Part shown: positions 1 through 64,000 of the stretch, one piece after another | Layout of the letters: every line of letters begins with the position of its first letter | Position numbering within the stretch: position 1 is the first letter of the stretch | Origin: Naegleria gruberi | Taxonomy: Eukaryota | DNA length: 64,000 nt | Direction: 5' to 3' (one strand) | Assembly: GCA_000004985.1 (NCBI GenBank) | Contig: GG738889.1 | Notes under the pieces: model-generated | Databases searched by the model: none | Told to the model about the DNA's origin: nothing | The model's input: only the letters and a program-made list of their open reading frames with translations | Program-made: the position numbers and the translations under genes

Positions 1-3000
1 TGTATCATCTTCTTGGGTAATTGTGGCACCTCCATTCAAAACAAGAATTGGGGTATCTGGTTCCTTATACACAAGTTGTGATTCTGTGATATTGGCAACT
101 TGGTTAGTGTCTGGATCGACTTGACCCTTAATTTGTTCTACTAACTTTTGAAGATCCTTTGGAATTTCAAACTTGGTATCAGCTTCAACAGGTTGAACAT
201 TGACTTTTGTTTCATTGAGATAAACTTGAACATCATTGACAAGAACCTTAACACCAGTCTTACCATCAGACAAGATTGAAACCTTATCCGATCCGCTCAT
301 GAATGAAATACCCTTCATACATGATGTCTTTGAATCTGCTGTACATTTCATCAATCTACCTTGTAATCCCAATTCATTAGACTTGTACAAGTAGAATTCA
401 CCAATTGAATTGAATGTATATTCTGCAGCATCAACAGTTCTAAGGTGAATATCACCAAAGGCCAAAACCTTATTGACCAAATCAAATATGTGAACAAGAC
501 TACAATCTGATCCTCCAAAACCTGGGAAACAAGCACAAGTATTTGGACCAACACAAGTACCTCTTCCTCCACACCAATTTCTATGGACACAATGGAATGA
601 TGAACAGGTTTCAGTGTACCAACCCCATCTACAGACACATTCATTTGGTCCAACACATTTACCTCTCTTAGCACCACCACAACTTGATCTATTAGCACAC
701 AAATCAGTATCAATGACAGCAACACAATTAGATCCAGGAGGAACATAGGTAGCCTCTTCAATATAGACAGTTGCTTCCTTCTTGACTGGAAGAGTGACAA
801 TATTATTCTTACAATCATAAGTAGTTAGACCATCTGTGAAATTGGATGGTGAGAGATTTCTAGTTGGTGAACCATCAGTAAATTCAATCTTAACTTTCAA
901 TGGTCCCCATTTGACAAATCCAATGGAAACACTCAAAGTTGTGGAACCTTGCCAATCGAGTCTTATCTTTTCAGGTGTACCAACAACACCAAGCCAATCA
1001 ATGGAATATCTATAGATACCATAATCCATGTAAAGTGCTCTGTACCACCATTCACCCCAATATTGCAATCTACCATTCAACTTTTCACTATATCCATTAG
1101 TACTATTCACTCTAGCTCTATCAATACCATTGGTAATGGCTGGAGTTGTAATTTCAAATCTCTTGAAATTCACAGATTCGTCACAAATGAAAGCATTCCA
1201 TTCCTTAACATAGGCACACAAAATTGGATCGACCATGATCATAGTACTTGGAATAATTCTAGCACCAGCTCTTCTGATTTTAGAAGGTACAGTAATATTT
1301 CTAGATAAAGTGCCGTCAGTATCAATAATAACTTCATGTCTATAAACATCAGACAATGATGATTCCTTAGAAGCCAAACCAGCAAGTAAATACATAACGT
1401 TAGCATTGTGGAAATACATTCTATTGGTAACATAATCACCTTGATTCATTGAAGCCCAATCATCATTTCTAAGATCAATGGATGATAGCTTTCTTTCACA
1501 ATTATCAACAAAATCAAAGAATTCCAAATCTTGAAGAAGTAAAGTATTACCATCACGATGATATAAAACACCGATAAATGGATCATTTCTACTGTATGAA
1601 GGAAGTGATCTATAATATGGTGAGGATGGATTCTTGTAATCAGTTCCACATCTATAACATTGACCATCATTACAATTATTTGGATTACCCTTATTTTGTG
1701 TAAAACCAATAAAGATGGCACCACTAACAACAATTGGACTCATAATGATATTAAGGACAGTATAACTAACTGGATTGTCTGCAAAGATACTTCCCTTCAA
1801 ATTGAGTTTTCCTTGAACGTGGGAGTATTGACCATTTTGTCTATTCTTCCAAATGTTCATATTCTCAAATACTGGTTCAGACCAAGGATTCTTATCAGTA
1901 CCACAATTAGTTGAATCATACATTTCCATCTTTGGATTTGTGCATGTGTAAAAGTTTGGATACAACATCATACCATGTTGATTATTACTGTGGGCAGTGT
2001 TGTTAACAAATTGTCCCCAGTACCATCTATTAGGTCTAATATATGGAGTTTGAGAAGCACCTGTAGCATAGGAATCCAAATGATACCAGAAACCAAAAGC
2101 ATCACTTCCAGCTGCACGATTTCCAATGAAAATATTGTTTGGATTGGTAATGTAGAAGGTGGCTGGATTATTGTCTTGATTGTCTGGAAGCATGACAGAT
2201 CTTGAATCTGGAATGACCTTTGAAAGTATACCAAGATTATTTTCGAAAATGTTATACTGTTCAGCACCATCTTCAAGGAAGAAAGTATGTCCATAAATAT
2301 TGAAAGCAACAACTCCTTCAACGTGTAAATAATTGGTTCCTTGCAATGCAACAGCTCTTTGATAGGTATCATAGACTGAAACCTTGTGGACATAGGAAGT
2401 ATTGGCATCACCAAACAATTGGAAGTAAATTGGATAACGACCTGGAATACCAGCTTGACCCATTCGTGTGAATTCAACATTATCAAGTCTGACATATTGA
2501 GCAGTTCTGAGGAAGGCAGTGTGACCACCAAACATTGAATCTTCACTTGTTGCCAAATCACCTCTAATCTTAATATTGTGCGATAACAAACCAACTTCAC
2601 CACGTTCATCAAATGTAACAACAGTTCCATTAGCCTTTTGATAGTATTCTGTATTGGCATAGTGACCATAGACGAGTGGTTTAACAAATCCAAAACATGT
2701 ACTATTGAAACGGACTGAAATTGTTCTTCTTTCAGCTTGATTGTGATAGTAATCAGTGGAAGCTAGAACAATTTCATCACCAACTTGCCATTCAGTTGGT
2801 TGTTTAAGATGAACGGAAGTATCACCAACTTGAGCTGATTTACCCAACAAAGTCCAAGAAACTTCATGTTTCTTACCATGCAAGCTCAAAGCACCTCCAC
2901 TGGTTACAATGATATTCTTAACACCAAATCCAATTAAAGTTCTATTGAGATTTCTTTCACCGTGAAGTGTAATTGTGGCATTGTGTTGATGAGGGCTGGT

Positions 3001-6000
3001 TTCATTACCTATTTGGAGAGAACCAGTAACAATCATCGATTTAAAGTGCATTTCCAAATCAAGCTCATCACTGAAAACTAAACAACCAAATACATGAACA
3101 ACGTCCAATTTTGGAGGAATGACATCCAAAATAACAGTATAGTTTTCTGGAACAACCAAAATTCTTTCGGGTTCAAGATAGAGAGAATCATCCTCTTCTT
3201 CTTCATCAATATAGTTGTTGGTAGAATTGGTTGTAGAGTTGGTGGAATTGTGTGAAATGAGAGTATTATTAACAAGAATGAATGTTGAATTATCGCCATA
3301 GCAATTTGTAACATTGAAAATGGTTCTATTAAGGGAACAAACTGTTGAGGTATTTACAGTAATTTGATTACAGACAACACTGGTAACATTCTCTGAAATG
3401 TAGGTAGTATTGCTGCAGTTTGAATTAGTTACTGAAATACACATGGCATCTCCATTGGAACAAGTTGAACAATTAGCACTATCACAAGTGAATGAATCAA
3501 TATGAGTGAAGATGACACAATCAGTATGGTTTGTATAGTAGAATCCATCGAATGTTGAATTCGTATAACATTCAGTGGTGTGTTCTGTAGCATAACAGTC
3601 ATAGATATCTTCACGAGTAATCTCAGTTGTGCAATTGGTAGTGCTATTGAATTGAGAATCATCAATATTTGAACTATTGCTATTGGATGTATTGTTAGAA
3701 TCAGTTGTTGAACTATTACCAATAGTTGAGTTACCGTCAACAGTAGAGTTATTATCAGTTGTTGAGTTTCCAGCAATTGTTGAGTTATCATTAGCTATTG
3801 TGGAGTTATCAGAAGTGGAATTGTTAAAGGTGGAGTTATCACTTGTAATAGTACCATTATTTACAATTGTTGAATTATCTGAAGTGGAATTATTTGAATC
3901 AGTTGTATTATTACTAGTTGTGGAATGATCAACTAGAGTAGAATTACTTCCATCAATATTGGTGGAATTGTTATCACCAATGTCAGTACTATTATCAACA
4001 TTTGTTCCATTATTATTATCAACTGTGCTATTATTGTCAGCTGTATTGTTGTTTTGAACAGTGGAGTTAGAATCGAGAGTTGAATTGTTTTCACCAATTG
4101 TACTGAAATCACCAACAGTAGCATTACTACCATCAGTGGTGGAATTATCAACTAGAGTTGAATTACCATCGATTGTGGAGTTATCACTTGTTGAACTATT
4201 AGATTCAGCTTGAGCAGTAATATTAACACAAGTTGTTGAAATACTCAAAACANNNNNNNNNNNNNNNNNNNNNNNNNNNNNNNNNNNNNNNNNNNNNNNN
4301 NNNNNNNNNNNNNNNNNNNNNNNNNNNNNNNNNNNNNNNNNNNNNNNNNNNNNNNNNNNNNNNNNNNNNNNNNNNNNNNNNNNNNNNNNNNNNNNNNNNN
4401 NNNNNNNNNNNNNNNNNNNNNNNNNNNNNNNNNNNNNNNNNNNNNNNNNNNNNNNNNNNNNNNNNNNNNNNNNNNNNNNNNNNNNNNNNNNNNNNNNNNN
4501 NNNNNNNNNNNNNNNNNNNNNNNNNNNNNNNNNNNNNNNNNNNNNNNNNNNNNNNNNNNNNNNNNNNNNNNNNNNNNNNNNNNNNNNNNNNNNNNNNNNN
4601 NNNNNNNNNNNNNNNNNNNNNNNNNNNNNNNNNNNNNNNNNNNNNNNNNNNNNNNNNNNNNNNNNNNNNNNNNNNNNNNNNNNNNNNNNNNNNNNNNNNN
4701 NNNNNNNNNNNNNNNNNNNTATAGTAGAATTGTTGTCTATTGTTGAATTGGAATTGGTAGTTGAATTATCAACATTAGTGGTATTATCATAAAGCGTTGA
4801 ATTGTCAACGTTAGTAGAGTTGTCCATTGTGGAATTGGAATCAGTCGTTGAATTATTAACATTAGTGGTATTATCACCTGTGGCTGTTGTTGAATTGTTC
4901 TCCACTGTTGAGTTATAGCTAACTGTACCATTTGAATCTGATTGTGTTGAATTGGAAAGTGAGTCGGTAGTGTTTTGGACAGTTCCATTATTAGTAGAAA
5001 TGGTCGAATTATCAGTAGAATTATTAGATATCGAGGTGTCATTCAAACCAGAGGTACTATTATCAACACTTGTTGAATTATCTATTTCTGTAGAATTGGA
5101 ATCAAAAGTGCTATTAGAATCAATTGTAGAATTATCAATATTGGTATTATTGGAATTATTACCATTATCAATATAAGTATTGTTATTATTAGTATTATCA
5201 TCAGTGTTAGTGGAATTACCAGTATGAGTAGAATTATCTCTGGAAGAATCATTAATAAAATGTGTATTATTATTCCCAATAATGGATGAATTATTCACAA
5301 GTGAGGAATTGCTCACAACTGTTTCATTCTTAACAATCACTGGATCCATGTATTCAGTCAAATTTCCATACAATTCAGACCACTTGATCACTTGTGATGG
5401 ACAATTATCACCAATACCATGTCCATATGGATTCAACTTGGTTGTTGTGAAAATAATTGCTTGATTACCAATACCATAACTATTATATCCAGTAAACTTG
5501 TTATATGGAAGAATTCTAAAACTGTAAGTCTTGTTTTCATCCAAATTATATCTTGTGAAATTATTGACATTATAAGATTTGTAAGTAATAGTAGTATATC
5601 CAACTGCATTCAATGTAGACATTTGAATTTGGATATAACAAATAGTACTAGCAGAAACATCTGGCATTTTCCACTTTAACAATACACTGTGATAGGTTGG
5701 AATTGCTCTAAAATTGTAAATGCTCGCAACTGATGATGCAGAAGGGAATGGAGCAACACTTGAATTATTGCCAGGATCAGACAAGTCCTTCAGGTTGTAT
5801 CTTCTTGTTGGAGGACCTCCATAGTACCACGAACAACAAGGATCACCCAATTCATCACCATTGGTTAAGCCATCTCCATCAGAGTCCTTCATGCAGAGAT
5901 CAGTGTTCCAGGCATAATTGTTATTCATGAAATCTCTTCCGAAAGATGTTAAATTACCATCCTTTTTGAAAATGTTCTGAAAGAGAGGTGAATTAGCAAA

Positions 6001-6980: not shown

Positions 6981-8351
6981 TTATAATACCTTTCTAATCC
7001 TATTATTTTTAGTATCTGCAATGTAAACAGCACCATTTGACTGAACTGCAATTCCACATGGATCATTGAGAGATGACAAGATGGCAGGCCCATTATCTCC
7101 ATCAAACCCAGCTCCGCTTCCACCAGCAATTGTTGAAATAGTTTTGGTTGTTGGATTAATCTTCTTAATTCTTGCATTAGACTTGTCAGCAACATAGACA
7201 TCACCATTTGGACCAATAGCAATACCAAAAGGTGAATCCAAGCATGCAAACTCTGTTGTGGATGGGAATCCTGGACGACATCCACCAGCAATTGTAGTCA
7301 TGGTATAATAACCATTTTGAACTACGACTTGTCTCACCGTATTGATCAAATTTTCAATAAAGTAAATCTTTCCTCCACTTGCTGCAACACTTATTGGGGA
7401 TGAAATCTTGATATATTGAGCAAGTCCTTCATAAATTAAATTGGGTTGTATATAAGGAGAGTATGTGTAATCTGTTCCAGCAACAGTGTAAAGTTTTGAA
7501 GAGGTAATTTTTCTAATCTTTGAATTATTAGTATCTGCAAAGTAAACAGTATTTGAACTAGATTGATCCACAGCAACACTTGTTGGATTATTCAACGATG
7601 AAGCAATGGCTGATAATCCGTCATACAAAGGACTACCAGCATCACCATCCCCTGCAATGGTAGAAATCTTTCCATTTGAGATTGTAATCTTTCTAATTCT
7701 ATGATTTTGGCTATCAGCAATATAGACATTTCCAATCGAATCGAGAGCAACACCTGTTGGTGAGCTTAATTTAGCAGTTGTAGCAATGATATTGTCTCCG
7801 TTATAACCTTCCTCTTCTGTTCCAGCAATGGTTGAAAGCTTTCCAGTAAGTGCTGTGAATTTTCTAATTCTATGATTTTGAGTGTCTGCAATGTAAATAT
7901 TTCCACTAGAATCCACTGCAATACTTGTTGGAAATAGAAGGGAGGTAGAAGTTGCTGCTCCTGAATCTCCACCATATCCAGGCATACCATTACCCACAAT
8001 GGTTTTAATTTGAGGTAACAAAATGTTGGTCAAGAATTGAGAAACGCTCACTGAACTAGATGGATTAGCCAACCTGTTTATCAAACCCCATGCGGAAGAG
8101 GAATTCGACTTTTTGTAAAGGAATACTACTCCATTATCAACCATGTCTGGTGCGCCAACTAAGAGATAGTTACCATTGGATGAGAAGGACAATAAACCGC
8201 CAAAAGATTGTTCTTCAGAATCAATGGCAAATTCCAATGCACAACTATCATTTTCCACACATGAGAAAATTTCAACTCTATATTCATATCCAAGCACCAA
8301 TTGGTTGGATAACATGGCTGCAGAAGTAACGTTCGAGACTGAGACATCCAT
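6981..8351 (-). CDS. Secreted beta-propeller protein with one FG-GAP-like repeat (FGGLLSFSSNGNYLLVGAPDMVDNGVVFLYKK) followed by about six NHL repeats (YIAD.QNHRIRKI).
   Basis: 456-aa ORF with an ATG start (AAG GAG ATG GAT GTC). It contains repeated ...GNIYIADTQNHRIRKF/GNVYIADSQNHRIRKI/GAVYIADTKNNRIRKV blocks, which are the NHL consensus. A possible extra 5' exon encodes a signal peptide MKRLHIMVTVIMMLLLLTL (ATG at 8622..8620). It would join through a 58-nt GTAGTT...CACAG intron into the open upstream frame (...HNGSTSSIILDTPVQ...). That exon is inference only. Confidence 0.7.
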   Translation of the reverse strand: MDVSVSNVTSAAMLSNQLVLGYEYRVEIFSCVENDSCALEFAIDSEEQSFGGLLSFSSNGNYLLVGAPDMVDNGVVFLYKKSNSSSAWGLINRLANPSSSVSVSQFLTNILLPQIKTIVGNGMPGYGGDSGAATSTSLLFPTSIAVDSSGNIYIADTQNHRIRKFTALTGKLSTIAGTEEEGYNGDNIIATTAKLSSPTGVALDSIGNVYIADSQNHRIRKITISNGKISTIAGDGDAGSPLYDGLSAIASSLNNPTSVAVDQSSSNTVYFADTNNSKIRKITSSKLYTVAGTDYTYSPYIQPNLIYEGLAQYIKISSPISVAASGGKIYFIENLINTVRQVVVQNGYYTMTTIAGGCRPGFPSTTEFACLDSPFGIAIGPNGDVYVADKSNARIKKINPTTKTISTIAGGSGAGFDGDNGPAILSSLNDPCGIAVQSNGAVYIADTKNNRIRKVL

Positions 8352-36708: not shown

Positions 36709-36780
36709 TCCCGTGTAGTCCAATGGCTAGGATACCTGGCTTTCACCCAGGAGGTCCGGGTTCAATTCCCGGCATGGGAG
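36709..36780 (+). tRNA. tRNA-Glu (anticodon TTC), 72 nt.
   Basis: TCCCGTGTAGTCCAATGGCTAGGATACCTGGCTTTCACCCAGGAGGTCCGGGTTCAATTCCCGGCATGGGAG folds as a cloverleaf. Acceptor TCCCGTG/CATGGGA plus discriminator G. Anticodon stem CCTGG/CCAGG with loop CTTTCAC. T-arm CCGGG-TTCAATT-CCCGG. A T-rich tract (TTTTAACTTTTTC) follows as a Pol III terminator. Confidence 0.9.
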
Positions 36781-44036: not shown

Positions 44037-44386
44037 TGTTTTATTGTTATTTTTTTAAATGTTTAAACTATTCGAAAGGCAAATTTAATTAATGTCAAGC
44101 AACCTAAAGAGTATGATGAAATTGGTAAGTCAACTTTACAAAAAGTGAAATTCATGGCTGCTAGTATGCTATTTTTGATCTAATTTGTGTGCAATTACTA
44201 TAAATATTCACAATTTTTGTAATCTCAAATCTAAGAATGGAAAGGTTAAGCCACCACTACGGCAAAGAGACCAATCTGTTTCTAATGTCAGAATAAGTTG
44301 GAATAGGATTAGTCTGTTTAATGAAAATTGTTCCTCCAACTTGATGCTTTGATTTTGGTTATGATTCTCTTTGAAGATGAAAAAAA

Positions 44387-44504
44387 GACTACAGCACCAC
44401 AGGTTCCCAAGTTGTCTCCAACCTCAGTACTGATGTGGCTCGACGATGCTTAACTTCTCAAATCGGACGGGATGAGGTGCATTCATCGTGATATGGCCGT
44501 AGCC
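44387..44504 (-). rRNA. 5S ribosomal RNA gene, 118 nt, dispersed single copy.
   Basis: Minus-strand sequence GGCTACGGCCATATCACGATGAATGCACCTCATCCCGTCCGATTTGAGAAGTTAAGCATCGTCGAGCCACATCAGTACTGAGGTTGGAGACAACTTGGGAACCTGTGGTGCTGTAGTC carries the conserved 5S blocks (CGGCCATA, CCCGTCCGAT, GAAGTTAAGC, AGTACT, TGGGAA, GGTGCTGTA). Helix I pairs GGCTACGGC with GTGCTGTAGTC. A T7 run follows as a Pol III terminator. Confidence 0.85.
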
Positions 44505-45725
44505 ATTCATCACCCCGAAATTTGAAATATTAATATCAAATTACATTAATGTCTTGAAGTAGTTCATGAATAAGATGTTTGTCATCAGAATTGATTGAAG
44601 TATTCGCATCCACTTCACAATGTTATTTACAAGCAAATATAGTAGCAATATCAATTCAACAAAAGTTTCCAAACATTCAACCTTTACCTTCCCAATTCCG
44701 CTTTTTTACACAAAATTAAATTCCCATTGTCTCTATATCATGCCATCTTCCAACACGTGTAACACTTTTGAGTGTCATCAAGAAATGCTCTCGATAATCG
44801 ATTTTTCACATAAAGGATGAATAATTTAGAGGGGATAAATTTTTCTTTCTGTAAAAAATTTCAAATTTTTTTGCCAGAAAACTCGGCAAAATTTTCAAAA
44901 GAAAAAACAACAAAAATTTTCTCTCTTGAAAATTCTACTTCTTCTGTGATGATTTTCAACAGTAATTCTGCATGATGGTAAAAACCATTTAATACACAGC
45001 ATGATAGGATGGAAAGGAAGTGATAGGAATTGGATTTATTGGATTTTATGATAAATTGCGGATTTTGGAAGGCAAAGATTACCTTTGTAAAAACTTTTAT
45101 GGAAATGATGAAGTGAAACCTTCATGCTTGTTGGTAAATAGTATTTACATAACAATGGAGAGTATGCGAACGTCTCAATTCAACATAATTCTTATCAAAA
45201 TATTAATTTTAATATTTTCATCATATTCAACATGAAATACAACAAGAACAACATCATTGCCATGTTATTTATCATCAATAATATCACCTGGGAATGTTTT
45301 GTTAATTCACATCTACCATTGGTGATGACAGAGAAGTTGAAAGTAAAATCGAAAAAGTTGGAAATACTTTTGACAAACCTGCTAGTAAAATGCAAAGCGA
45401 GCAAAATTCACCACCTATGAGCATCATCAAGAACACTCCCTATCTGTTTTTCAAGTTTTTGTGCTAGATTGGGAGGTCAAATTTTTACATCCTCTCCCAA
45501 CATTAATTATTCTTCATCTACTTGTTCAATCTTCTTCAGCACAACAATAAATTCATAACAGCAATATTACCAATTACTAATCTTCATCTTGTCCCTTCCC
45601 TCCAAACATTCATCAAAATATTCATCAATTCCTATCCGCACCCAACATCTCCAACATCTCCTTCACAATCGCACCTCCTCTCCTACCATATCGCAATAAG
45701 CGCATTGAAAGTTAAAAAAAAATCC

Positions 45726-46281
45726 NNNNNNNNNNNNNNNNNNNNNNNNNNNNNNNNNNNNNNNNNNNNNNNNNNNNNNNNNNNNNNNNNNNNNNNNNNN
45801 NNNNNNNNNNNNNNNNNNNNNNNNNNNNNNNNNNNNNNNNNNNNNNNNNNNNNNNNNNNNNNNNNNNNNNNNNNNNNNNNNNNNNNNNNNNNNNNNNNNN
45901 NNNNNNNNNNNNNNNNNNNNNNNNNNNNNNNNNNNNNNNNNNNNNNNNNNNNNNNNNNNNNNNNNNNNNNNNNNNNNNNNNNNNNNNNNNNNNNNNNNNN
46001 NNNNNNNNNNNNNNNNNNNNNNNNNNNNNNNNNNNNNNNNNNNNNNNNNNNNNNNNNNNNNNNNNNNNNNNNNNNNNNNNNNNNNNNNNNNNNNNNNNNN
46101 NNNNNNNNNNNNNNNNNNNNNNNNNNNNNNNNNNNNNNNNNNNNNNNNNNNNNNNNNNNNNNNNNNNNNNNNNNNNNNNNNNNNNNNNNNNNNNNNNNNN
46201 NNNNNNNNNNNNNNNNNNNNNNNNNNNNNNNNNNNNNNNNNNNNNNNNNNNNNNNNNNNNNNNNNNNNNNNNNNNNNNNNN
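45726..46281. other. Assembly gap (556 N). It hides the 5' end of the following ORF.
   Basis: Run of N characters. Confidence 1.
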
Positions 46282-47738
46282 AACCTTGGATTGATGAAAC
46301 CATTTCAACAAAAAGACTCACTGGTACTCTCAATGGTGATGGAGTTTCACCATTTAAAAAGAGCTTGAATAATTTCTATAATTTCATTGTACAGTTCAAT
46401 GAAATGAGTCCTTCTGATCGAAAGAAATCTACCAATAATTTTCTATGGGCCATTTTACCAAGGAAACCTGATAAGATAGATATTGAAATTGGACTCAAAG
46501 TAATAATGAATGATCTGAATTGTCTAAATTCAAATCAAAAAAACCTTAATTTGGAAATGATAATTGAACGAGTAATTGCTGACCTTCCTGCAAGATCAGA
46601 GATTTTATTCTTTAAACGCCAAGGATTTTATTTTTGTCACTTGTGTAACACTAAGGGTGAAGATACATCTGGTTCTCACAAAGTTTATCCATTGGAGTTT
46701 CGAACAAGATTAGTAGTATTGAATGGAAAATCAGAACTCATTGAGGTTTTTGAAAAATTCAAATACAGAGAATATCACAATGAGATTTCTCTCATTAACA
46801 ATTTTCCAAACTCAAATCTACCACCCGGAATGGATAATGTTTCTCCAATCCTATTACAACCATTCAATCCTAATCCAACATGTCTCTGTTCATATGATAA
46901 CATGCATTACAATTATGAAGGTATTTTGGTGAAATTTCTCAATTTAATTGATGAACGATATTGGAAAGAATTTGATGTCATTTATTTAAAACAGAAGTTT
47001 CCCTCCTTTTTTCACAAGCACCCAAGATCCATTGCAAAGAATATCAATCACCTGAAATCCATTGAAGTTTACATTCTGTGTCATTATTATCTCGAATTAT
47101 TTGAGGAAATTCCAAGCTATAGTGAAATTCAAGAAATAGTTCAACACATTATTCAATATGTGAGAATTATTGATAAGCTAATGGACTCATTTCAATTAGA
47201 AGATCTTCTATTATTGCAGAAACAGCTAAACTCAGTTCTGTACTTTTTTCAAAAGAAGGATGCTAATTTTTGCTCTCCAAATTTTCACATAGCAGCTGAA
47301 ATGGTAATGAACTGCCGTCTATATGGTCCATTGTGGTGCAATAACGCATTTATTTTTGAGGCAATGAATAACATTCTCTCAAAACCCTTCAAATGTGCCA
47401 ATTCTTTAAGATATTCAATTCTATTCTTTGATATGGTAAATTTGGTACAATTATTGAACTTGAAACCTCCCAATCGTAAACTAGAATGTGTCTGTGGTAA
47501 TTATATAATCAATAGCAAAAGAGATTACTTGCTACACACTCCCTCTAAAGAAATTTATCAAGTCAATTCATTTTCTCCAAATTATTCACAAATTGAGATT
47601 CGACATGCTGTTAATGGCACAACAATCACCGTCTCACAAGACACTATCAAACAAGATTTCATACCAGCAATATGCCAGCAAATTAATGGCTCTTTTCACT
47701 TCAAACCAATTCACAAAATGGCCTTTACATTATATTAA
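46282..47738 (+). mobile_element. 5'-truncated ORF of about 485 aa (start is in the gap). Its C-terminal part resembles the DUF4218/TNP2 core of CACTA/EnSpm/KDZ-type transposases. Possibly a transposase-derived or mobile-element gene.
   Basis: An open frame runs from the gap edge to TAA at 47738. The segment NFHIAAEMVMNCRLYGPLWCNNAFIFEAMNNILSK follows the TNP2-family pattern H-[LI]-x-x-[HE]-[LM]-V-x5-RL-x-GP-[VL]-x3-W-x4-FE-x2-M-x2-[IL]-L-K. The upstream FPSFF and several C-x2-C pairs (CHLCNTKG, CVCGNY) are also present. This is recognition-level only. Confidence 0.4.
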
Positions 47739-47950
47739 ATGTCTTTCCATATTTGGCTTCATCTCTAAAATAAACACTTTCTATTTTTGCAACCAGTTTA
47801 AACTATTTTTCAAAAAAAATACCTCAACATACTAGTAAGTCGTATCAGTTATCAATTATATTACATCATTTCAATTCATTTACAAGACATATCAATTCAA
47901 ATTTTTATTTCACGTTTTTATAAGAAACTCTTGTCAATTTCCTTGTCATC

Positions 47951-48050
47951 TTTGATGGTGTGAAATCTTTTACAATATTAATTCACACGGTGTGAATCTT
48001 TCATAGCATTGAGTTTCACTCAGTGTGAAATGGTTCAAGATGAAAGATTT
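47951..48050. promoter_or_regulatory. Cluster of GTGTGAA-containing palindromes.
   Basis: ggTGTGAAatc, aaTTCACACgGTGTGAAtc (a perfect 7-bp inverted repeat with a 1-nt spacer) and ttTCACTCAGTGTGAAAtgg, all within 100 nt, about 310-410 nt upstream of the P450 ATG. Confidence 0.5.
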
Positions 48051-48117
48051 CCAACTTGTAAGAATTATGAATAGTTCAATAAAATTTCAATTTATCAAAA
48101 ATTAATAATCATTCTGC

Positions 48118-48300
48118 AACGTCATTGGAGACACTTTTTGAGACGTCATTGAGGACGCTTTTTTTGACGTCTTAATGACTCTCAAATTGACACCGTCAAA
48201 ATGACGAAAAAAAACGTCATTTTGACGTCCACAACACCGTCCCAATGACACCTTAACAAGCATAAACAAAGGCGTCATTCATGACTATAAAATCGTCAAA
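48118..48300. promoter_or_regulatory. Dense array of about 12 CRE/TGACG-type half-sites ((A/C/G)CGTCA with ATGAC partners), including near-palindromic TGACGTC. It lies immediately upstream of the P450 gene.
   Basis: Half-sites: caACGTCAttgg, gagACGTCAttgagg, ttTGACGTCttaATGACtc, caCCGTCAaaATGACGaaaaaaaACGTCAttTTGACGTCcac, aCCGTCccaATGACacc, gGCGTCAttcATGACta, aTCGTCAaaacaaGCGTCAat. TGACG is the core of bZIP (ATF/CREB/AP-1-like) sites. Confidence 0.55.
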
Positions 48301-48360
48301 ACAAGCGTCAATAAAAATGAGCGGGGCATTGAAAGTTTAAAAAAAAATTCCCAACTTGAA

Positions 48361-50013
48361 ATGCAAGAAACACAATCACTCGCCGATTACATCAAATCTT
48401 TTGGTACATTTCAATTGATTTTCCTCTCTTTCATTTCTTTGATCATTCTCTACTTGATAATTTATACATGCCGATTTGTGCACTTGTATTTAAAGTATAG
48501 GCACATTCCTGGCTTTGTTTCCTTTCTACCACCCTTCTTGGGATCACTCGTGGCCGGAGAAATGTTTGTTGGTTATGAGTATTCATGTATTTTGAAGGCT
48601 TTTACGAGTAATCCTGATAGTACAATTGTAAAGATTCAAAAAGGATTGGATCTTTATTTTGCTGTGGCTAAGGATCAAGAAATAATCAAGGAATTACTCA
48701 TTAGAAAGTATAAAACTATGGCCAAGAATGAAAAGTTGTTGGAACCATTGGGATTATTTGGACATAATATGTTAACTGCCGATTCAACCAATCCTATTTG
48801 GAAGAAACATAGAGTATTGGCTAATCCAATCTTTTCAAATCATGCTCACTTGAAAAATGTATTCAGAGTCACAATGGAAGAACTTTCCAACATGATTAAA
48901 TATTGGAAAGATAATTATGATTCAGATGCTGAAGGAAATATTAGAAATGTCAATACTACACAAGAACTCAAGTCAATTACACTCACTGTTATTAACAGAG
49001 TTGCTTTTGGTTATGATATTGAGATTTTTAATAAGAGTACAAAACACAGAGATGAAATTCATCAATCGACAACTGACTTGTTGAGTGGAATCATGTACAA
49101 ATTTGTTTTCCCTACATGGTTCTTTGAATATTTACCGTTTGGAATTTTTGGCAAATTCAAGAAGGCAAAGAATAATTTCCGTAAGATTGCCATGGATATG
49201 ATTAGTAAAAAGACAGCTGAAATTCAAAAGAATAATGAAATTATGGAAGATGAAGATTTATTGAGCTTGTTAATGAAGAGTAGTGCTTCTCAAAACTTAT
49301 CAGATGAGGAAAAATTGAGTGATGATGAATTGGTCAGTGCTATGTTTATTATATTCTTTGCTGGATTTGAGACAAGTTCAACCTCTTTGAATTTCATGTT
49401 GAGGCTGTTGGCCATTCATCCAGATGTTCAGGAGAAATTAATTGAAGAAATTGATGCAACAGTAGAGTCAGCCGAATCTATGAAATTTGAAGATCTTACC
49501 GAAAGACTTCCTCTATTGAACTCATTCATTAAGGAGTCATTCAGGGTCAAACCAGCAGTAGGTGCCGTTTCCAGAACTGTTGCCAAGAAGGGAGGAGAAA
49601 CTATTGGAGGAATGCACTTTAATGAGGGAGACCAAATTGTTTTCAACATTATGGTTCATCACAAACTCTCCCACAATAATGCTATGGATACTTTCAAATT
49701 TGACAGATTTTATCAACCATCAGATAAGCAAGACGATTCTTCATCAGAAAGCTCAGATAAGGGAACAATGGGAAATTTAACACTCGAGTTTGCAAAGGAT
49801 GATTTGGCCTCCTTCTCACTTGGTCCAAGAGATTGTCTCGGAAGAAGAATGGCCTTGATAGAAGTTAAACAGATTCTCGTCTATTTATTGAAAAAGTACA
49901 GAATTACAGTGCCAGAACATTTGAAGGAGCAACAGGCTAAAATTAAGGAAACTTACATCATGACAAGATGTACCTTTGAACCTTTTATTCTTAATTTTGA
50001 AAAGAGATGTTAA
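48361..50013 (+). CDS. Cytochrome P450, intronless, 550 aa, with an N-terminal membrane anchor.
   Basis: ATG at 48361. Marks: TM anchor LIFLSFISLIILYLIIYTC, I-helix FFAGFETSS, K-helix ESFR, heme loop FSLGPRDCLGRRMALIEVK. It ends in TAA. Confidence 0.85.
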   Translation: MQETQSLADYIKSFGTFQLIFLSFISLIILYLIIYTCRFVHLYLKYRHIPGFVSFLPPFLGSLVAGEMFVGYEYSCILKAFTSNPDSTIVKIQKGLDLYFAVAKDQEIIKELLIRKYKTMAKNEKLLEPLGLFGHNMLTADSTNPIWKKHRVLANPIFSNHAHLKNVFRVTMEELSNMIKYWKDNYDSDAEGNIRNVNTTQELKSITLTVINRVAFGYDIEIFNKSTKHRDEIHQSTTDLLSGIMYKFVFPTWFFEYLPFGIFGKFKKAKNNFRKIAMDMISKKTAEIQKNNEIMEDEDLLSLLMKSSASQNLSDEEKLSDDELVSAMFIIFFAGFETSSTSLNFMLRLLAIHPDVQEKLIEEIDATVESAESMKFEDLTERLPLLNSFIKESFRVKPAVGAVSRTVAKKGGETIGGMHFNEGDQIVFNIMVHHKLSHNNAMDTFKFDRFYQPSDKQDDSSSESSDKGTMGNLTLEFAKDDLASFSLGPRDCLGRRMALIEVKQILVYLLKKYRITVPEHLKEQQAKIKETYIMTRCTFEPFILNFEKRC

Positions 50014-50098
50014 AATTTTCTAATTTATTTACATGATTTGATTATTATTAAATCGTCGTTAGGAGAATAGGATTTCAAAATTGGATATTTTGTTAACT

Positions 50099-50881
50099 TT
50101 AAACATGTTGCTCTTGATTAAGATTTGGATAATGAACTTGATTAATGGAATAAGCAACTGGATTTTGAGCAACATATTGTTGAGGAGTGACAATAGTTGG
50201 AACGGAGGCATCATCTTCTTCCTCTCTCAATTGTTGATGAGCTTCACTCTTTTGTAATGAAATAGAATAACCCTTCTTCTTCAAAATGAGAACTACAATT
50301 CCAGCTCCACAAGCCAAACACAATGAAACACTAGCAACAATACCACCAATAACACCAAGAATTAAACCAATTGGTAATCCTTGTTCTCCAGCTCTATTTT
50401 GAGTTTTGGTCATTTCATTACCATCTTGAATATTGGAATCATCTTGATCCATATCTGGTGATGCTGATGAAGAATCTTGTGGTCTTGGTGGTCTTTGTCC
50501 AGAACGATCTGGTCTTGGTGGACGAGGACCTGGACCTGGTTGTCTTCTGGAATGATCTGGTCTAGGTGGTCTTTGTCCAGATGGTAATGGACGTGGAGGT
50601 CTTTTTCCAGAAGGCATTGGTCTTGGATTTCCTGATTGTTGTGGACCTGGTGGAGGATGTGGTCTTTCACCAGAATGATCAGGTCTTGGTGGTCTTTGTC
50701 CAGAGTGATCTGGTCTTGGAGGTCTTTGTCCTGAACGATCAGGTCTTGGACCAGGTGGTGGATTTGGAGGTCTTTGAGAAATATTGTTATCTTGAGCGAG
50801 TGTGGACATTGTCAAGGCAATGAACATGATTAACATGACAGCGAGGACTGCCAATGATTTCTTTGAGTGTTGGTGATGCAT
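50099..50881 (-). CDS. Type-I membrane protein with a signal peptide, about 9 tandem Pro-rich decapeptide repeats (consensus SGQRPPRPDH), one TM helix and a short cytoplasmic tail. 260 aa.
   Basis: ATG at 50881. Signal peptide-like LAVLAVMLIMFIALTMSTLA. Repeats include RPDRSGQRPPRPDHSGQRPPRPDHSGERPHPPPGP...SGKRPPRPLPSGQRPPRPDHS...RPDRSGQRPPRP. TM helix: LPIGLILGVIGGIVASVSLCLACGAGIVVLIL. The 30-nt nucleotide periodicity is visible (ggtcttggtggtctttgtccag...). Confidence 0.65.
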   Translation of the reverse strand: MHHQHSKKSLAVLAVMLIMFIALTMSTLAQDNNISQRPPNPPPGPRPDRSGQRPPRPDHSGQRPPRPDHSGERPHPPPGPQQSGNPRPMPSGKRPPRPLPSGQRPPRPDHSRRQPGPGPRPPRPDRSGQRPPRPQDSSSASPDMDQDDSNIQDGNEMTKTQNRAGEQGLPIGLILGVIGGIVASVSLCLACGAGIVVLILKKKGYSISLQKSEAHQQLREEEDDASVPTIVTPQQYVAQNPVAYSINQVHYPNLNQEQHV

Positions 50882-58841: not shown

Positions 58842-58891
58842 NNNNNNNNNNNNNNNNNNNNNNNNNNNNNNNNNNNNNNNNNNNNNNNNNN
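58842..58891. other. Assembly gap (50 N).
   Basis: Run of N characters. Confidence 1.
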
Positions 58892-60088: not shown

Positions 60089-62870
60089 NNNNNNNNNNNN
60101 NNNNNNNNNNNNNNNNNNNNNNNNNNNNNNNNNNNNNNNNNNNNNNNNNNNNNNNNNNNNNNNNNNNNNNNNNNNNNNNNNNNNNNNNNNNNNNNNNNNN
60201 NNNNNNNNNNNNNNNNNNNNNNNNNNNNNNNNNNNNNNNNNNNNNNNNNNNNNNNNNNNNNNNNNNNNNNNNNNNNNNNNNNNNNNNNNNNNNNNNNNNN
60301 NNNNNNNNNNNNNNNNNNNNNNNNNNNNNNNNNNNNNNNNNNNNNNNNNNNNNNNNNNNNNNNNNNNNNNNNNNNNNNNNNNNNNNNNNNNNNNNNNNNN
60401 NNNNNNNNNNNNNNNNNNNNNNNNNNNNNNNNNNNNNNNNNNNNNNNNNNNNNNNNNNNNNNNNNNNNNNNNNNNNNNNNNNNNNNNNNNNNNNNNNNNN
60501 NNNNNNNNNNNNNNNNNNNNNNNNNNNNNNNNNNNNNNNNNNNNNNNNNNNNNNNNNNNNNNNNNNNNNNNNNNNNNNNNNNNNNNNNNNNNNNNNNNNN
60601 NNNNNNNNNNNNNNNNNNNNNNNNNNNNNNNNNNNNNNNNNNNNNNNNNNNNNNNNNNNNNNNNNNNNNNNNNNNNNNNNNNNNNNNNNNNNNNNNNNNN
60701 NNNNNNNNNNNNNNNNNNNNNNNNNNNNNNNNNNNNNNNNNNNNNNNNNNNNNNNNNNNNNNNNNNNNNNNNNNNNNNNNNNNNNNNNNNNNNNNNNNNN
60801 NNNNNNNNNNNNNNNNNNNNNNNNNNNNNNNNNNNNNNNNNNNNNNNNNNNNNNNNNNNNNNNNNNNNNNNNNNNNNNNNNNNNNNNNNNNNNNNNNNNN
60901 NNNNNNNNNNNNNNNNNNNNNNNNNNNNNNNNNNNNNNNNNNNNNNNNNNNNNNNNNNNNNNNNNNNNNNNNNNNNNNNNNNNNNNNNNNNNNNNNNNNN
61001 NNNNNNNNNNNNNNNNNNNNNNNNNNNNNNNNNNNNNNNNNNNNNNNNNNNNNNNNNNNNNNNNNNNNNNNNNNNNNNNNNNNNNNNNNNNNNNNNNNNN
61101 NNNNNNNNNNNNNNNNNNNNNNNNNNNNNNNNNNNNNNNNNNNNNNNNNNNNNNNNNNNNNNNNNNNNNNNNNNNNNNNNNNNNNNNNNNNNNNNNNNNN
61201 NNNNNNNNNNNNNNNNNNNNNNNNNNNNNNNNNNNNNNNNNNNNNNNNNNNNNNNNNNNNNNNNNNNNNNNNNNNNNNNNNNNNNNNNNNNNNNNNNNNN
61301 NNNNNNNNNNNNNNNNNNNNNNNNNNNNNNNNNNNNNNNNNNNNNNNNNNNNNNNNNNNNNNNNNNNNNNNNNNNNNNNNNNNNNNNNNNNNNNNNNNNN
61401 NNNNNNNNNNNNNNNNNNNNNNNNNNNNNNNNNNNNNNNNNNNNNNNNNNNNNNNNNNNNNNNNNNNNNNNNNNNNNNNNNNNNNNNNNNNNNNNNNNNN
61501 NNNNNNNNNNNNNNNNNNNNNNNNNNNNNNNNNNNNNNNNNNNNNNNNNNNNNNNNNNNNNNNNNNNNNNNNNNNNNNNNNNNNNNNNNNNNNNNNNNNN
61601 NNNNNNNNNNNNNNNNNNNNNNNNNNNNNNNNNNNNNNNNNNNNNNNNNNNNNNNNNNNNNNNNNNNNNNNNNNNNNNNNNNNNNNNNNNNNNNNNNNNN
61701 NNNNNNNNNNNNNNNNNNNNNNNNNNNNNNNNNNNNNNNNNNNNNNNNNNNNNNNNNNNNNNNNNNNNNNNNNNNNNNNNNNNNNNNNNNNNNNNNNNNN
61801 NNNNNNNNNNNNNNNNNNNNNNNNNNNNNNNNNNNNNNNNNNNNNNNNNNNNNNNNNNNNNNNNNNNNNNNNNNNNNNNNNNNNNNNNNNNNNNNNNNNN
61901 NNNNNNNNNNNNNNNNNNNNNNNNNNNNNNNNNNNNNNNNNNNNNNNNNNNNNNNNNNNNNNNNNNNNNNNNNNNNNNNNNNNNNNNNNNNNNNNNNNNN
62001 NNNNNNNNNNNNNNNNNNNNNNNNNNNNNNNNNNNNNNNNNNNNNNNNNNNNNNNNNNNNNNNNNNNNNNNNNNNNNNNNNNNNNNNNNNNNNNNNNNNN
62101 NNNNNNNNNNNNNNNNNNNNNNNNNNNNNNNNNNNNNNNNNNNNNNNNNNNNNNNNNNNNNNNNNNNNNNNNNNNNNNNNNNNNNNNNNNNNNNNNNNNN
62201 NNNNNNNNNNNNNNNNNNNNNNNNNNNNNNNNNNNNNNNNNNNNNNNNNNNNNNNNNNNNNNNNNNNNNNNNNNNNNNNNNNNNNNNNNNNNNNNNNNNN
62301 NNNNNNNNNNNNNNNNNNNNNNNNNNNNNNNNNNNNNNNNNNNNNNNNNNNNNNNNNNNNNNNNNNNNNNNNNNNNNNNNNNNNNNNNNNNNNNNNNNNN
62401 NNNNNNNNNNNNNNNNNNNNNNNNNNNNNNNNNNNNNNNNNNNNNNNNNNNNNNNNNNNNNNNNNNNNNNNNNNNNNNNNNNNNNNNNNNNNNNNNNNNN
62501 NNNNNNNNNNNNNNNNNNNNNNNNNNNNNNNNNNNNNNNNNNNNNNNNNNNNNNNNNNNNNNNNNNNNNNNNNNNNNNNNNNNNNNNNNNNNNNNNNNNN
62601 NNNNNNNNNNNNNNNNNNNNNNNNNNNNNNNNNNNNNNNNNNNNNNNNNNNNNNNNNNNNNNNNNNNNNNNNNNNNNNNNNNNNNNNNNNNNNNNNNNNN
62701 NNNNNNNNNNNNNNNNNNNNNNNNNNNNNNNNNNNNNNNNNNNNNNNNNNNNNNNNNNNNNNNNNNNNNNNNNNNNNNNNNNNNNNNNNNNNNNNNNNNN
62801 NNNNNNNNNNNNNNNNNNNNNNNNNNNNNNNNNNNNNNNNNNNNNNNNNNNNNNNNNNNNNNNNNNNNNN
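60089..62870. other. Assembly gap (2782 N) between the last gene and the subtelomere.
   Basis: Run of N characters. Confidence 1.
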
Positions 62871-63566
62871 GATTGAAGTGATGTATTTGATAGAGTTGAT
62901 CTGACCTGTCTTTCTCTAAAGTCAACCATAATATTTCAACATTTACCTTCCCATGGTACCATTTCTGATTTTTATGATATGAAATTGAATTCTACATCAT
63001 TATATATCATCTACATCATGTTGGTAAAGTTTCAATAGGTGGTCCTTTTTCAAGATTTCCACCTTTTCATCATAGTTGACCATATGATGGTTGAGGGAAG
63101 AAATCTTTAAATATGAAAGTTAAAATAAATTTGATATTCGATGTTTACTCATCAAATGGAACATTTTCATGTCAGGATTCAATATGTTTTGATGAGAAAC
63201 TAAAAAGTTATTGTTGACCTCTTGTACTTCACAACTTCCCTTTTCACTTCATACTTTTATACCTACAGACATGAACCTTTGAAATTTCATATGAAAGTGA
63301 TTATAAATGTTGTTAATGATGATATAAACTATATAATCTCATTAAAGGATTTCGAAATTATTATTCTTCCTATGGTTTCATTTATGAAATTTTAATCTGA
63401 CTCTATTTAAAAAGTTAATATTTTATAAATTGAAAAACTAAATATACCACATTGTTCTACTCATCATTAGCTATCGAATGATATAAAATTTAATGATATT
63501 TGAATAAGTTTATAATTTTGGGTTAGGGTTTGAACGTTGGGTTTAGAAGAATTCTATTTTTAGGTT
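62871..63566. other. AT-rich, ORF-free subtelomeric sequence. It ends in a degenerate telomere-like transition (TTGGGTTAGGGTTTGAACGTTGGGTTTAGAAG...TAGGTTTTGGG).
   Basis: No ORF of 60 aa or more. Contains a 10-bp inverted repeat ACTCATCAAA...TTTGATGAGA at 63140-63200. Telomere-like variant units, including a TTAGGG-type unit GGGTTA, start at about 63517. Confidence 0.7.
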
Positions 63567-64000
63567 TTGGGTTTGGGTTTGGGTTTGGGTTTGGGTTTGG
63601 GTTTGGGTTTGGGTTTGGGTTTGGGTTTGGGTTTGGGTTTGGGTTTGGGTTTGGGTTTGGGTTTGGGTTTGGGTTTGGGTTTGGGTTTGGGTTTGGGTTT
63701 GGGTTTGGGTTTGGGTTTGGGTTTGGGTTTGGGTTTGGGTTTGGGTTTGGGTTTGGGTTTGGGTTTGGGTTTGGGTTTGGGTTTGGGTTTGGGTTTGGGT
63801 TTGGGTTTGGGTTTGGGTTTGGGTTTGGGTTTGGGTTTGGGTTTGGGTTTGGGTTTGGGTTTGGGTTTGGGTTTGGGTTTGGGTTTGGGTTTGGGTTTGG
63901 GTTTGGGTTGGGTTTGGGTTTGGGTTTGGGTTTGGGTTTGGGTTTGGGTTTGGGTTTGGGTTTGGGTTTGGGTTTGGGTTTGGGTTTGGGTTTGGGTTGG
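63567..64000 (+). repeat. Telomeric repeat array (TTTGGG)n of about 72 units. The G-rich strand runs 5'->3' toward the window end.
   Basis: Perfect GGGTTT hexamer tandem array from 63567 to the window end. One 5-mer variant (GGGTT) lies at about 63905. It is preceded by a degenerate transition and sits at a scaffold end after the gap. Confidence 0.85.

What the first reader, a model, noticed from the sequence alone, without database searches (positions are those of the whole stretch)
47951..48353. P450 gene preceded by two dense motif arrays: GTGTGAA palindromes and about 12 TGACG/CRE half-sites
Within 400 nt upstream of the intronless P450 (ATG 48361) there are three GTGTGAA-centred palindromes and an extraordinary run of (A/C/G)CGTCA...ATGAC units that includes TGACGTC cores. 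This density far exceeds chance in AT-rich DNA. TGACG(TCA) is the binding core of bZIP factors of the ATF/CREB/Atf1/Yap class. It could be a stress- or xenobiotic-responsive enhancer for the P450. Alternatively the arrays are subterminal repeats of the adjacent transposase-like element (46282-47738), which would make the P450 promoter TE-derived.
Basis: seen in the sequence. Interest (0 to 1): 0.55.

Follow-up and report, generated by a model that had tools for sequence, protein, structure and literature searches.

The report
Transposon end repeats beside a P450
The dense CGTCA and GTGTGAA motif arrays upstream of this Naegleria gruberi P450 gene are real, but they are the repeat-studded end of a cut-and-paste DNA transposon that landed 35 bases before the gene's start codon, not a native stress enhancer.

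Summary
Ten of the window's 34 CGTCA sites lie in 191 bp (0.08 expected) and four of its 12 GTGTGAA sites lie in 72 bp.

Its own alternative, transposon subterminal repeats, is.

- **Insertion.** Two contigs from another N. gruberi-like sample carry the same P450. Their upstream DNA joins window ~45,723 directly to 48,326, so everything between (assembly gap, 484-codon ORF, both arrays) is an insertion.
- **Transposase.** The ORF is the C-terminal part of a 690-aa DDE transposase of the CACTA/Mirage/Chapaev (CMC, Pfam tnp2) group.
- **Relatives.** In N. lovaniensis, relatives are 5.9-kb elements with three copies 99.5–99.9% identical in unrelated places. They have CCCGC…GCGGG termini, 2-bp target duplications and the same CGTCAAT-type arrays next to their ends. 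The window's array ends in GAGCGGG at 48,325.
- **Likely function (inferred).** The arrays most likely bind an element-encoded protein during transposition, as in maize En/Spm.
- **Open question.** Whether the insertion rewires P450 expression was not tested.

This is a new member of a known kind, of modest interest.

The parts
45700..45725 (+). End of the contig left of the gap. It reads through the unoccupied target site (…AATAAGCGCATTGAAAGTTAAAAAAAAATCC) and so duplicates 48326-48351.
   Evidence: It aligns to the L001 empty site and to the window's right junction. It is either reads from an insertion-free haplotype or an assembly overlap.
45726..46281 (.). Assembly gap (556 N) hiding the left part of the element: the left terminus, probably a second ORF, and the first ~206 codons of the transposase.
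   Evidence: N run. P0001, a 690-aa near-identical copy on another N. gruberi scaffold, shows the ORF is N-terminally truncated here.
46284..47738 (+). C-terminal 484 codons plus stop of a CMC-superfamily (tnp2 / DUF1258-like) DDE transposase.
   Evidence: near-identical to P0001: reported as 100%, but two substitutions were read by eye in the 484 aa. (Transposase_21, E = 0.006). (1491 profile hits). (10 of 10 distant hits scanned match Transposase_21 and DUF1258 at E <= 0.001; 8 of 10 reach the Transposase_21 gathering score). (invariant D225, D306, C324-x2-C327, D411, H414, E467).
47739..48325 (+). 3' non-coding subterminal region of the transposon. It contains both motif arrays.
   Evidence: Absent from the empty-site contigs L001 and L002.
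47958..48029 (.). GTGTGAA(A/T)C repeat cluster: four copies, two of them arranged as palindromes. A second class of subterminal repeat of unknown role.
48112..48310 (.). CGTCAWW subterminal repeat array: 10 exact CGTCA plus 3 variants, in both orientations, several as CGTCA-N3/4-TGACG pairs.
   Evidence: The same motif is arrayed at the ends of related elements (L006-L009, L003).
48319..48325 (+). Right terminus GAGCGGG, the reverse complement of the CCCGCTC left-end motif of the family (terminal inverted repeat).
   Evidence: It is the only GAGCGGGG in the window. It matches the termini …AGCGGG of L006-L009 and GGAGCGGGG of L003.
48326..48327 (+). GC, the putative right copy of a 2-bp target-site duplication.
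   Evidence: Inferred from the empty site AAGC-GC-ATT and from the 2-bp duplications at four N. lovaniensis insertions. The left junction is in the gap, so this is unverified.
48326..48360 (+). The only 35 bp of native sequence left between the insertion and the P450 start codon.
48361..50013 (+). Intronless cytochrome P450 ORF (550 aa), the host gene downstream of the insertion.

Best explanation
The arrays are the 3' subterminal repeats of a cut-and-paste DNA transposon of the CACTA/Mirage/Chapaev (CMC) group.

In this Naegleria gruberi assembly the element is inserted 35 bp upstream of a P450 start codon. It runs from somewhere inside the assembly gap to 48325, where it ends in the family's terminal motif GAGCGGG.

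By analogy with maize En/Spm, the short CGTCAWW units probably bind an element-encoded protein. That protein would be either the transposase's N-terminal zinc finger or the poorly conserved second ORF product. The units are repeated in both orientations and often paired as CGTCA-N3/4-TGACG. Binding would gather the two ends for cleavage at the termini. This step is inferred.

The GTGTGAA repeats are a second repeat class in the same subterminal region. Their role is unknown.

A side effect (also inferred) is that the occupied allele keeps only 35 bp of its native upstream DNA. Its promoter is therefore now supplied or disturbed by the transposon end.
For: Shown:
1. Local enrichment is real.
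2. An empty-site allele exists. L001 positions 113-1072 match window 44745-45723, and positions 1049-3117 match window 48326-50392. Nothing lies between them.
3. The ORF is a transposase. A profile of the family finds 1491 relatives. All 10 distant ones scanned match Pfam Transposase_21 (tnp2) and DUF1258 at E <= 0.001, and 8 of 10 reach the Transposase_21 gathering score. D225, D306 and C324-x2-C327 are invariant across 15 diverse sequences.
4. Relatives are mobile. Three N. lovaniensis copies of 5.87-5.89 kb are 99.5-99.9% identical and sit among different neighbouring genes.
5. The family has shared termini, CCCGC(T)…(A)GCGGG, and 2-bp target duplications at four of four insertions: AA, GA, TG, GA.
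6. The same motif is arrayed next to those termini.
   - N. lovaniensis family 1, left end: 7 CGTCA and 8 TTAACG in about 220 bp.
   - Family 2 (L009): 7 at the left end and 2 at the right.
   - Metagenomic relative L003: (C/G)GTCATT at both ends.
   - L011: CGTTAAT.
7. The window array ends in GAGCGGG, the only such site in 64 kb.

From the literature: in En/Spm the TNPA protein binds the subterminal repeats, which are cis-requirements for transposition, and these accessory proteins are poorly conserved (PMC2613891). Likewise, the two second ORFs compared (N. lovaniensis L006 and metagenomic L003) show no detectable similarity.
Against: - The left end of this particular copy is in the gap. 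Its inverted terminus, its target duplication and the presence of arrays at its other end are not seen here, only in relatives.
- The termini are CCCGC…GCGGG, not the CA…TG or CACTA usual for the group.
- The direct Pfam match of the Naegleria protein is below threshold (16.2 bits against 28.6).
- The AlphaFold model was too poor to test the fold (pLDDT 42.6).
- No binding or transposition has been shown.
- In N. lovaniensis family 1 the arrays are concentrated at the left end, with only one CGTCA at the right. The layout therefore varies within the family.
Confidence: 0.85

Rival explanations
1. Native bZIP/CRE-type enhancer. The TGACG half-sites are host transcription-factor sites that evolved to regulate the P450 in response to stress or xenobiotics.
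For: TGACG is the bZIP core, and three sites are 7 of 8 matches to TGACGTCA. The arrays lie within 250 bp of the ATG.
Against: - The same P450 exists without the arrays.
- The arrays lie inside an insertion bounded by a transposon terminus.
- The same arrays accompany related transposases next to unrelated genes.
- There is no perfect CRE.
- A related N. lovaniensis P450 promoter lacks them.
Confidence: 0.02
2. Exapted TE-derived enhancer. The arrays arrived with the transposon, but host bZIP factors (or the element's own protein, as in Spm-suppressible alleles) now bind them and change P450 expression in the occupied allele.
For: Only 35 bp of native upstream DNA remain. The element end offers TGACGTC-like cores and a TATAAAA about 75 nt before the ATG. 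TNPA binding to En/Spm ends is known to alter expression of the host gene (PMC2613891).
Against: There are no expression or binding data. The insertion looks recent and polymorphic, so there has been no time for selection. The P450 ORF is identical in protein in both alleles, which says nothing about its regulation.
Confidence: 0.1
3. Assembly artefact. The element-bearing contig was wrongly scaffolded next to the P450, so the arrays are not really adjacent to it.
For: There is a gap at 45726-46281, and 24-26 bp are duplicated on both sides of the inserted block.
Against: The right junction, from the transposase ORF through the arrays and 35 native bp into the P450, is continuous sequence without N. 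It has exactly the structure expected of an insertion: terminus, then target sequence.
Confidence: 0.03

Closest known systems
Subterminal repeat regions of maize En/Spm and other CACTA transposons (TNPA-binding 12-bp motifs)
   Same: - Short motifs are repeated many times in direct and inverted orientation within a few hundred bp of the element end.
- The element encodes a tnp2-family transposase plus a second, poorly conserved protein.
- The motif sequence drifts between related families (CGTCAAT, CGTTAAT, GTCATT here).
- An insertion next to a gene can change that gene's expression (PMC2613891).
   Different: - The termini are CCCGC…GCGGG, not CACTA…TAGTG.
- The target duplication is 2 bp, not 3 bp.
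- The element is compact (about 5.9 kb), with two divergently transcribed ORFs called without introns rather than alternatively spliced transcripts.
- Binding has not been shown.
Mirage elements (Caenorhabditis; CMC superfamily, merged into EnSpm in Repbase, PMC4455052)
   Same: - The 2-bp target duplication matches; that Mirage makes 2-bp duplications is from my own knowledge of Repbase and Yuan & Wessler 2011.
- Distant relatives of the Naegleria transposase match Pfam DUF1258, a Caenorhabditis family, along with Transposase_21.
   Different: - That DUF1258 corresponds to Mirage is my inference and was not tested.
- The Naegleria proteins themselves do not reach either Pfam threshold.
- No phylogeny was made.
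CRE / ATF-CREB and plant as-1 (TGACG) bZIP elements
   Same: They share the TGACG core and have some adjacent or paired copies.
   Different: - There is no perfect TGACGTCA.
- The predominant pairing is everted (CGTCA-N3/4-TGACG), not abutted.
- The sites belong to a mobile element and are absent from the other allele.
Ac/Ds (hAT) subterminal AAACGG repeats
   Same: This is the same general principle: many short transposase-binding motifs in the subterminal 200-250 bp are required in cis (PMC3260210 mentions the subterminal repeats).
   Different: It belongs to a different transposase superfamily, makes 8-bp duplications and uses a different motif.

Membership tests
CMC (CACTA/EnSpm-Mirage-Chapaev) DNA transposons | Transposase homologous to the tnp2 (Pfam Transposase_21) DDE family | tested here: met
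   A family profile finds 1491 relatives, 434 at E <= 1e-10. Ten of 10 distant hits scanned match Transposase_21 at E <= 0.001 (1e-4 to 7e-12), and 8 of the 10 reach its gathering score. The direct match of P0001 is sub-threshold (E = 0.006, 16.2 bits), so the link is transitive.
CMC (CACTA/EnSpm-Mirage-Chapaev) DNA transposons | [quoted passage not shown] | tested here: inconclusive
   C324-x2-C327, 18 residues after invariant D306, is invariant in 15 sequences. Invariant H414 and E467 are present, but I could not identify a clear H(3-4)H pair or assign the catalytic E. The structure model was too poor to help.
CMC (CACTA/EnSpm-Mirage-Chapaev) DNA transposons | Short target-site duplication (2-5 bp) | tested here: met
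   Four N. lovaniensis insertions have 2-bp duplications: AA, GA, TG, GA. In the window itself only the right junction is visible. It is consistent with GC, but the left junction lies in the gap.
CMC (CACTA/EnSpm-Mirage-Chapaev) DNA transposons | Termini 5'-CA…TG-3' (CAC…GTG) in most members | tested here: not met
   Termini are CCCGC(T)…(A)GCGGG in L003, L006-L009, L011 and the window. The source paper says 'in most cases', so this does not exclude membership, but it is atypical.
CACTA / En-Spm in the strict sense | CACTA terminal inverted repeats and a 3-bp duplication | tested here: not met
   The termini are CCCGC and the duplications are 2 bp. This is not a CACTA element in the strict sense.
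CACTA / En-Spm in the strict sense | Arrays of short subterminal repeats in both orientations near the ends | tested here: met
   
Mobile element (general) | Presence/absence polymorphism with a precise empty site, and multiple near-identical copies in different contexts | tested here: met
   The empty site is seen in L001 and L002. Three N. lovaniensis copies are 99.5-99.9% identical. A second N. gruberi copy, P0001, lies on another scaffold.
CRE/bZIP-responsive enhancer of the P450 | Palindromic TGACGTCA or conserved TGACG sites that belong to the gene's own promoter | tested here: not met
   There is no perfect octamer. The sites are absent from the other allele and from a related N. lovaniensis P450 promoter.
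CRE/bZIP-responsive enhancer of the P450 | Binding by a bZIP factor and an effect on transcription | not testable with these tools
   This needs EMSA or DAP-seq and allele-specific expression data.

The most novel reading that the evidence does not exclude
A recently active, heterozygous Mirage-like transposon with atypical CCCGC termini sits in subtelomeric DNA of N. gruberi. Its TGACGTC-rich end may have become the working promoter or enhancer of a P450. That would give one allele a new regulation, either bZIP-responsive or dependent on the element's own binding protein, as in the Spm-suppressible alleles of maize.
Probability: 0.1. Interest if true: 0.5.

Novelty: new member of a known kind. 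Interest (0 to 1): 0.3.

Why it matters
**For the scan.** The result explains an eye-catching motif cluster as ordinary transposon anatomy. It also warns that dense 'transcription-factor-like' arrays beside a gene may be transposon ends.

**For Naegleria biology.**
- It documents an apparently still mobile CMC-group DNA transposon family in Heterolobosea. I found no description of it in the searchable literature.
- The family has unusual termini and a conserved CGTCAWT end motif.
- One insertion is polymorphic and sits directly in front of a P450 in subtelomeric DNA.
- An active cut-and-paste element with defined ends could be of practical use in an organism with few genetic tools. The occupied and empty alleles offer a natural test of how a transposon end affects a neighbouring promoter.

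Tried and rejected
- **Second N. gruberi copy.** Fetching P0001 (on a 12,976-bp scaffold) and the N. gruberi P450 paralogues P0008 and P0009 failed, because N. gruberi gene positions are not on record. The left end of this exact element and the paralogue promoters therefore could not be examined.
- **Metagenome scan.** The scan for more family members returned only the JGI contig already in hand.
- **Structure.** The AlphaFold2 model of the transposase from the 6-sequence alignment was poor (pLDDT 42.6, pTM 0.26), so I ran no fold search.
- **Pfam.**
  - The window's 484-aa fragment gave nothing at E <= 0.01.
  - The L003 second ORF gave nothing at E <= 10.
  - The N. lovaniensis second ORF was not scanned here and has no precomputed Pfam hit.
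- **Second ORF.** The L003 and N. lovaniensis versions show no similarity. The N. lovaniensis version has homologues only in N. lovaniensis, so the likely DNA-binding partner stays uncharacterised.
- **Non-coding RNA.** Rejected. Rfam finds nothing in 47700-48400 except a chance hit at E = 0.9.
- **Genome-wide motif.** Rejected. CGTCA and GTGTGAA are not enriched in the window as a whole.
- **Source sample.** A literature search for the sequencing project of the empty-site contigs (PRJEB11402) found nothing.

Full report
**1. What is in the sequence**

The window is from Naegleria gruberi. The two ORFs flanking the finding match N. gruberi proteins at 100% reported identity.

ORF 48361-50013 is a 550-aa cytochrome P450 (Pfam p450, E = 1.9e-61).

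In the ~400 nt before its ATG the two motif clusters exist as described.
- CGTCA occurs 34 times in 64 kb, as expected overall (shuffles 36.5 ± 5.9). Ten of those lie in 48120-48310.
- From the background rate 0.076 are expected in that stretch (Poisson P = 1.8e-18). One hundred Markov simulations never gave more than 4 in any 200 bp.
- GTGTGAA occurs 12 times, four of them in 47958-48029 (P = 3.5e-10).

- Two of the four GTGTGAA copies form palindromes. One stands alone.
- There is no perfect CRE (TGACGTCA) in the window, only three 7-of-8 matches.
- The commonest arrangement of the CGTCA units is an everted pair, CGTCA-N3/4-TGAC(G).
- Oriented on the core, the units share CGTCA followed by A/T-rich bases (CGTCATT, CGTCAAA, CGTCAAT).

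**2. The arrays lie inside an insertion**

Looking up the exact P450 protein returned two contigs from another sample (ERR1078381: L001 and L002).
- Downstream of window 48326 they are 99.2% identical to the window.
- Upstream of that point they do not match the arrays. They match window 44745-45723, the DNA to the left of the assembly gap.
- So in that genome ~45,723 is joined directly to 48,326.
- The gap (45726-46281), the 484-codon ORF (46284-47738), the GTGTGAA cluster and the CGTCA array are all absent.
- The native upstream kilobase in L001 has one CGTCA and no GTGTGAA.

The window's own contig end left of the gap (45700-45725) also reads through the unoccupied site, …AATAAGCGCATTGAAAGTT….
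- This is most simply explained by reads from an insertion-free haplotype of the sequenced strain. That is inference. N. gruberi NEG-M is known to be heterozygous (my own knowledge of the genome paper).
- The right junction, from ORF through arrays into the P450, is uninterrupted sequence. The adjacency is therefore real in at least one haplotype.

**3. The inserted ORF is a transposase**

- The ORF is the C-terminal 484 residues of a 690-aa N. gruberi protein, P0001. P0001 is annotated on a different 12,976-bp scaffold and, by my reading, differs at two residues, so it is a second copy or allele.
- Close homologues exist only in Naegleria-like genomes.
- A profile of the six family members, searched against 1.84 billion representatives, found 1491 relatives at E <= 0.001 and 434 at E <= 1e-10, typically aligned over about 570 residues.
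- All ten distant relatives I scanned match Pfam Transposase_21 ('tnp2', the En/Spm TnpD family) and DUF1258 at E <= 0.001. Eight of the ten reach the Transposase_21 gathering score.
- P0001 itself gives a sub-threshold Transposase_21 match over the same region (E = 0.006).
- Across 15 diverse sequences an N-terminal C-x2-C…C-x-C cluster, D225, D306, C324-x2-C327, D411, H414 and E467 are invariant. The C(2)C after the second aspartate is a stated hallmark of the CMC/Transib group (PMC12730594).
- An AlphaFold model was too poor to use.

**4. Relatives show the complete element, with the same arrays at its ends**

In N. lovaniensis the identical 751-aa protein is encoded at three places with unrelated neighbouring genes.
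- The shared block is 5.87-5.89 kb and 99.5-99.9% identical.
- It begins CCCGCTACTC… and ends …GAGAAGCGGG.
- It is flanked by 2-bp duplications (AA, GA, TG).
- It contains a second, divergently transcribed ORF of about 410-470 aa.
- Within 220 bp of its left terminus lie seven CGTCA and eight TTAACG units in both orientations, with consensus CGTCAAT. One further unit lies by the right terminus.

Other relatives repeat the pattern.
- A second N. lovaniensis family (L009) runs from CCCGCAC… at 544 to …AAGCGGG at 7413. It has a GA duplication, seven CGTCA(A/T) units at the left end and two at the right.
- A metagenomic relative with 43% protein identity (L003) has CCCGCTCC on the left and GGAGCGGGG on the right. 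It carries (C/G)GTCATT repeats at both ends.
- L011 starts CCCGCAC followed by CGTTAAT repeats.

The window's array ends with GAGCGGG at 48319-48325. GAGCGGGG occurs nowhere else in the 64 kb. Next comes GC-ATTGAAAG, and the empty site reads AAGC-GC-ATTGAAAG, which is compatible with a 2-bp GC duplication.

**5. How it most likely works**

Shown: the arrays are subterminal repeats of a mobile, recently active DNA transposon with a CMC-type transposase.

Inferred: they are binding sites for an element-encoded protein that assembles the two ends for cleavage at the CCCGC termini.
- The model is En/Spm. There TNPA binds the subterminal repeats, which are required in cis, while the tnp2-type TNPD acts at the termini (PMC2613891).
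- Three things fit a protein-recognition role: the motif is kept across species and families while the surrounding DNA is not, it occurs in both orientations, and it forms paired units that would suit a dimer.
- The binder could be the transposase's invariant N-terminal zinc cluster or the second ORF.
- The second ORF is as poorly conserved as the TNPA-like proteins of CACTA elements (PMC2613891). In N. lovaniensis it carries a heptad-leucine stretch.
- The GTGTGAA repeats are a second subterminal repeat class. I did not look for them in the relatives, and I cannot assign them a role.

**6. Consequence for the P450**

- Only 35 bp of native sequence remain upstream of the ATG in the occupied allele.
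- The element end supplies a TATAAAA about 75 nt upstream and the TGACGTC-like cores.
- Whether it drives, enhances or blocks P450 transcription is untested. I rate a functional, host-factor-mediated effect at about 10%.

**7. Comparison and novelty**

- The element works like a CACTA/En-Spm transposon. It is not one in the strict sense, because it lacks CACTA termini and makes 2-bp rather than 3-bp duplications.
- The 2-bp duplication and the DUF1258 similarity point towards the Mirage branch of CMC. That assignment rests partly on my own knowledge and has no phylogeny behind it.
- The CCCGC termini are atypical for a group said to have CA…TG termini 'in most cases' (PMC12730594).
- Four literature searches found no description of this Naegleria family or of the sample. 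Repbase could not be checked.
- I file it as a new member of a known kind.

**8. Verdict**

- The enhancer interpretation is rejected and the transposon-end interpretation is accepted, at about 0.85.
- Interest is 0.3. This is a tidy explanation and a possibly useful active element, but it is not surprising to a specialist.

Noticed in passing
window 63560-64000: The window ends in a long (GGGTTT)n telomere-like array. The P450/transposon locus is therefore subtelomeric, about 15 kb from a chromosome end.
   Followed up: no
window 44386-44504 (-) and 36709-36780 (+): A 5S rRNA gene (Rfam 105 bits) lies about 1.2 kb upstream of the insertion site. A tRNA gene lies further left.
   Followed up: no
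window 45697-45705; L001 1046-1054: The unoccupied site reads AAGCGCATT. The GCGC could be two retained copies of a 2-bp GC duplication, which would be an excision footprint, rather than a never-occupied site.
   Followed up: partly
window 48043-48061 and 48343-48361: There is a 19-nt near-repeat: AAAGATTTCCAACTTGTAA inside the element and AAAAATTCCCAACTTGAAA abutting the P450 ATG in native DNA (84% identical, D3). It could be chance or a shared core-promoter-like motif.
   Followed up: no
L003 279-316: The metagenomic relative also sits about 37 bp upstream of a host gene's start codon, like the window copy at 35 bp. This hints at a preference for, or tolerance of, insertion just upstream of genes.
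   Followed up: no
L007 8410-14256 (N. lovaniensis PYSW02000069): Directly beside one element copy, a gene pair (nSTAND-type ATPase plus short-chain dehydrogenase) is present as a large inverted duplication.
   Followed up: no
L007 4423-5829 (-): The element's second ORF contains a heptad-leucine stretch (LREKNEALSLENKQLKELIIKL) with no basic region before it, which may be a dimerisation helix. It has homologues only in N. lovaniensis, in a cluster of 8 members.
   Followed up: partly
window 4253-4719, 58842-58891, 60089-62870: There are three further assembly gaps in the window. The annotated P450 model P0007 (483 aa) is shorter than the 550-aa ORF that the independent contigs also carry.
   Followed up: no
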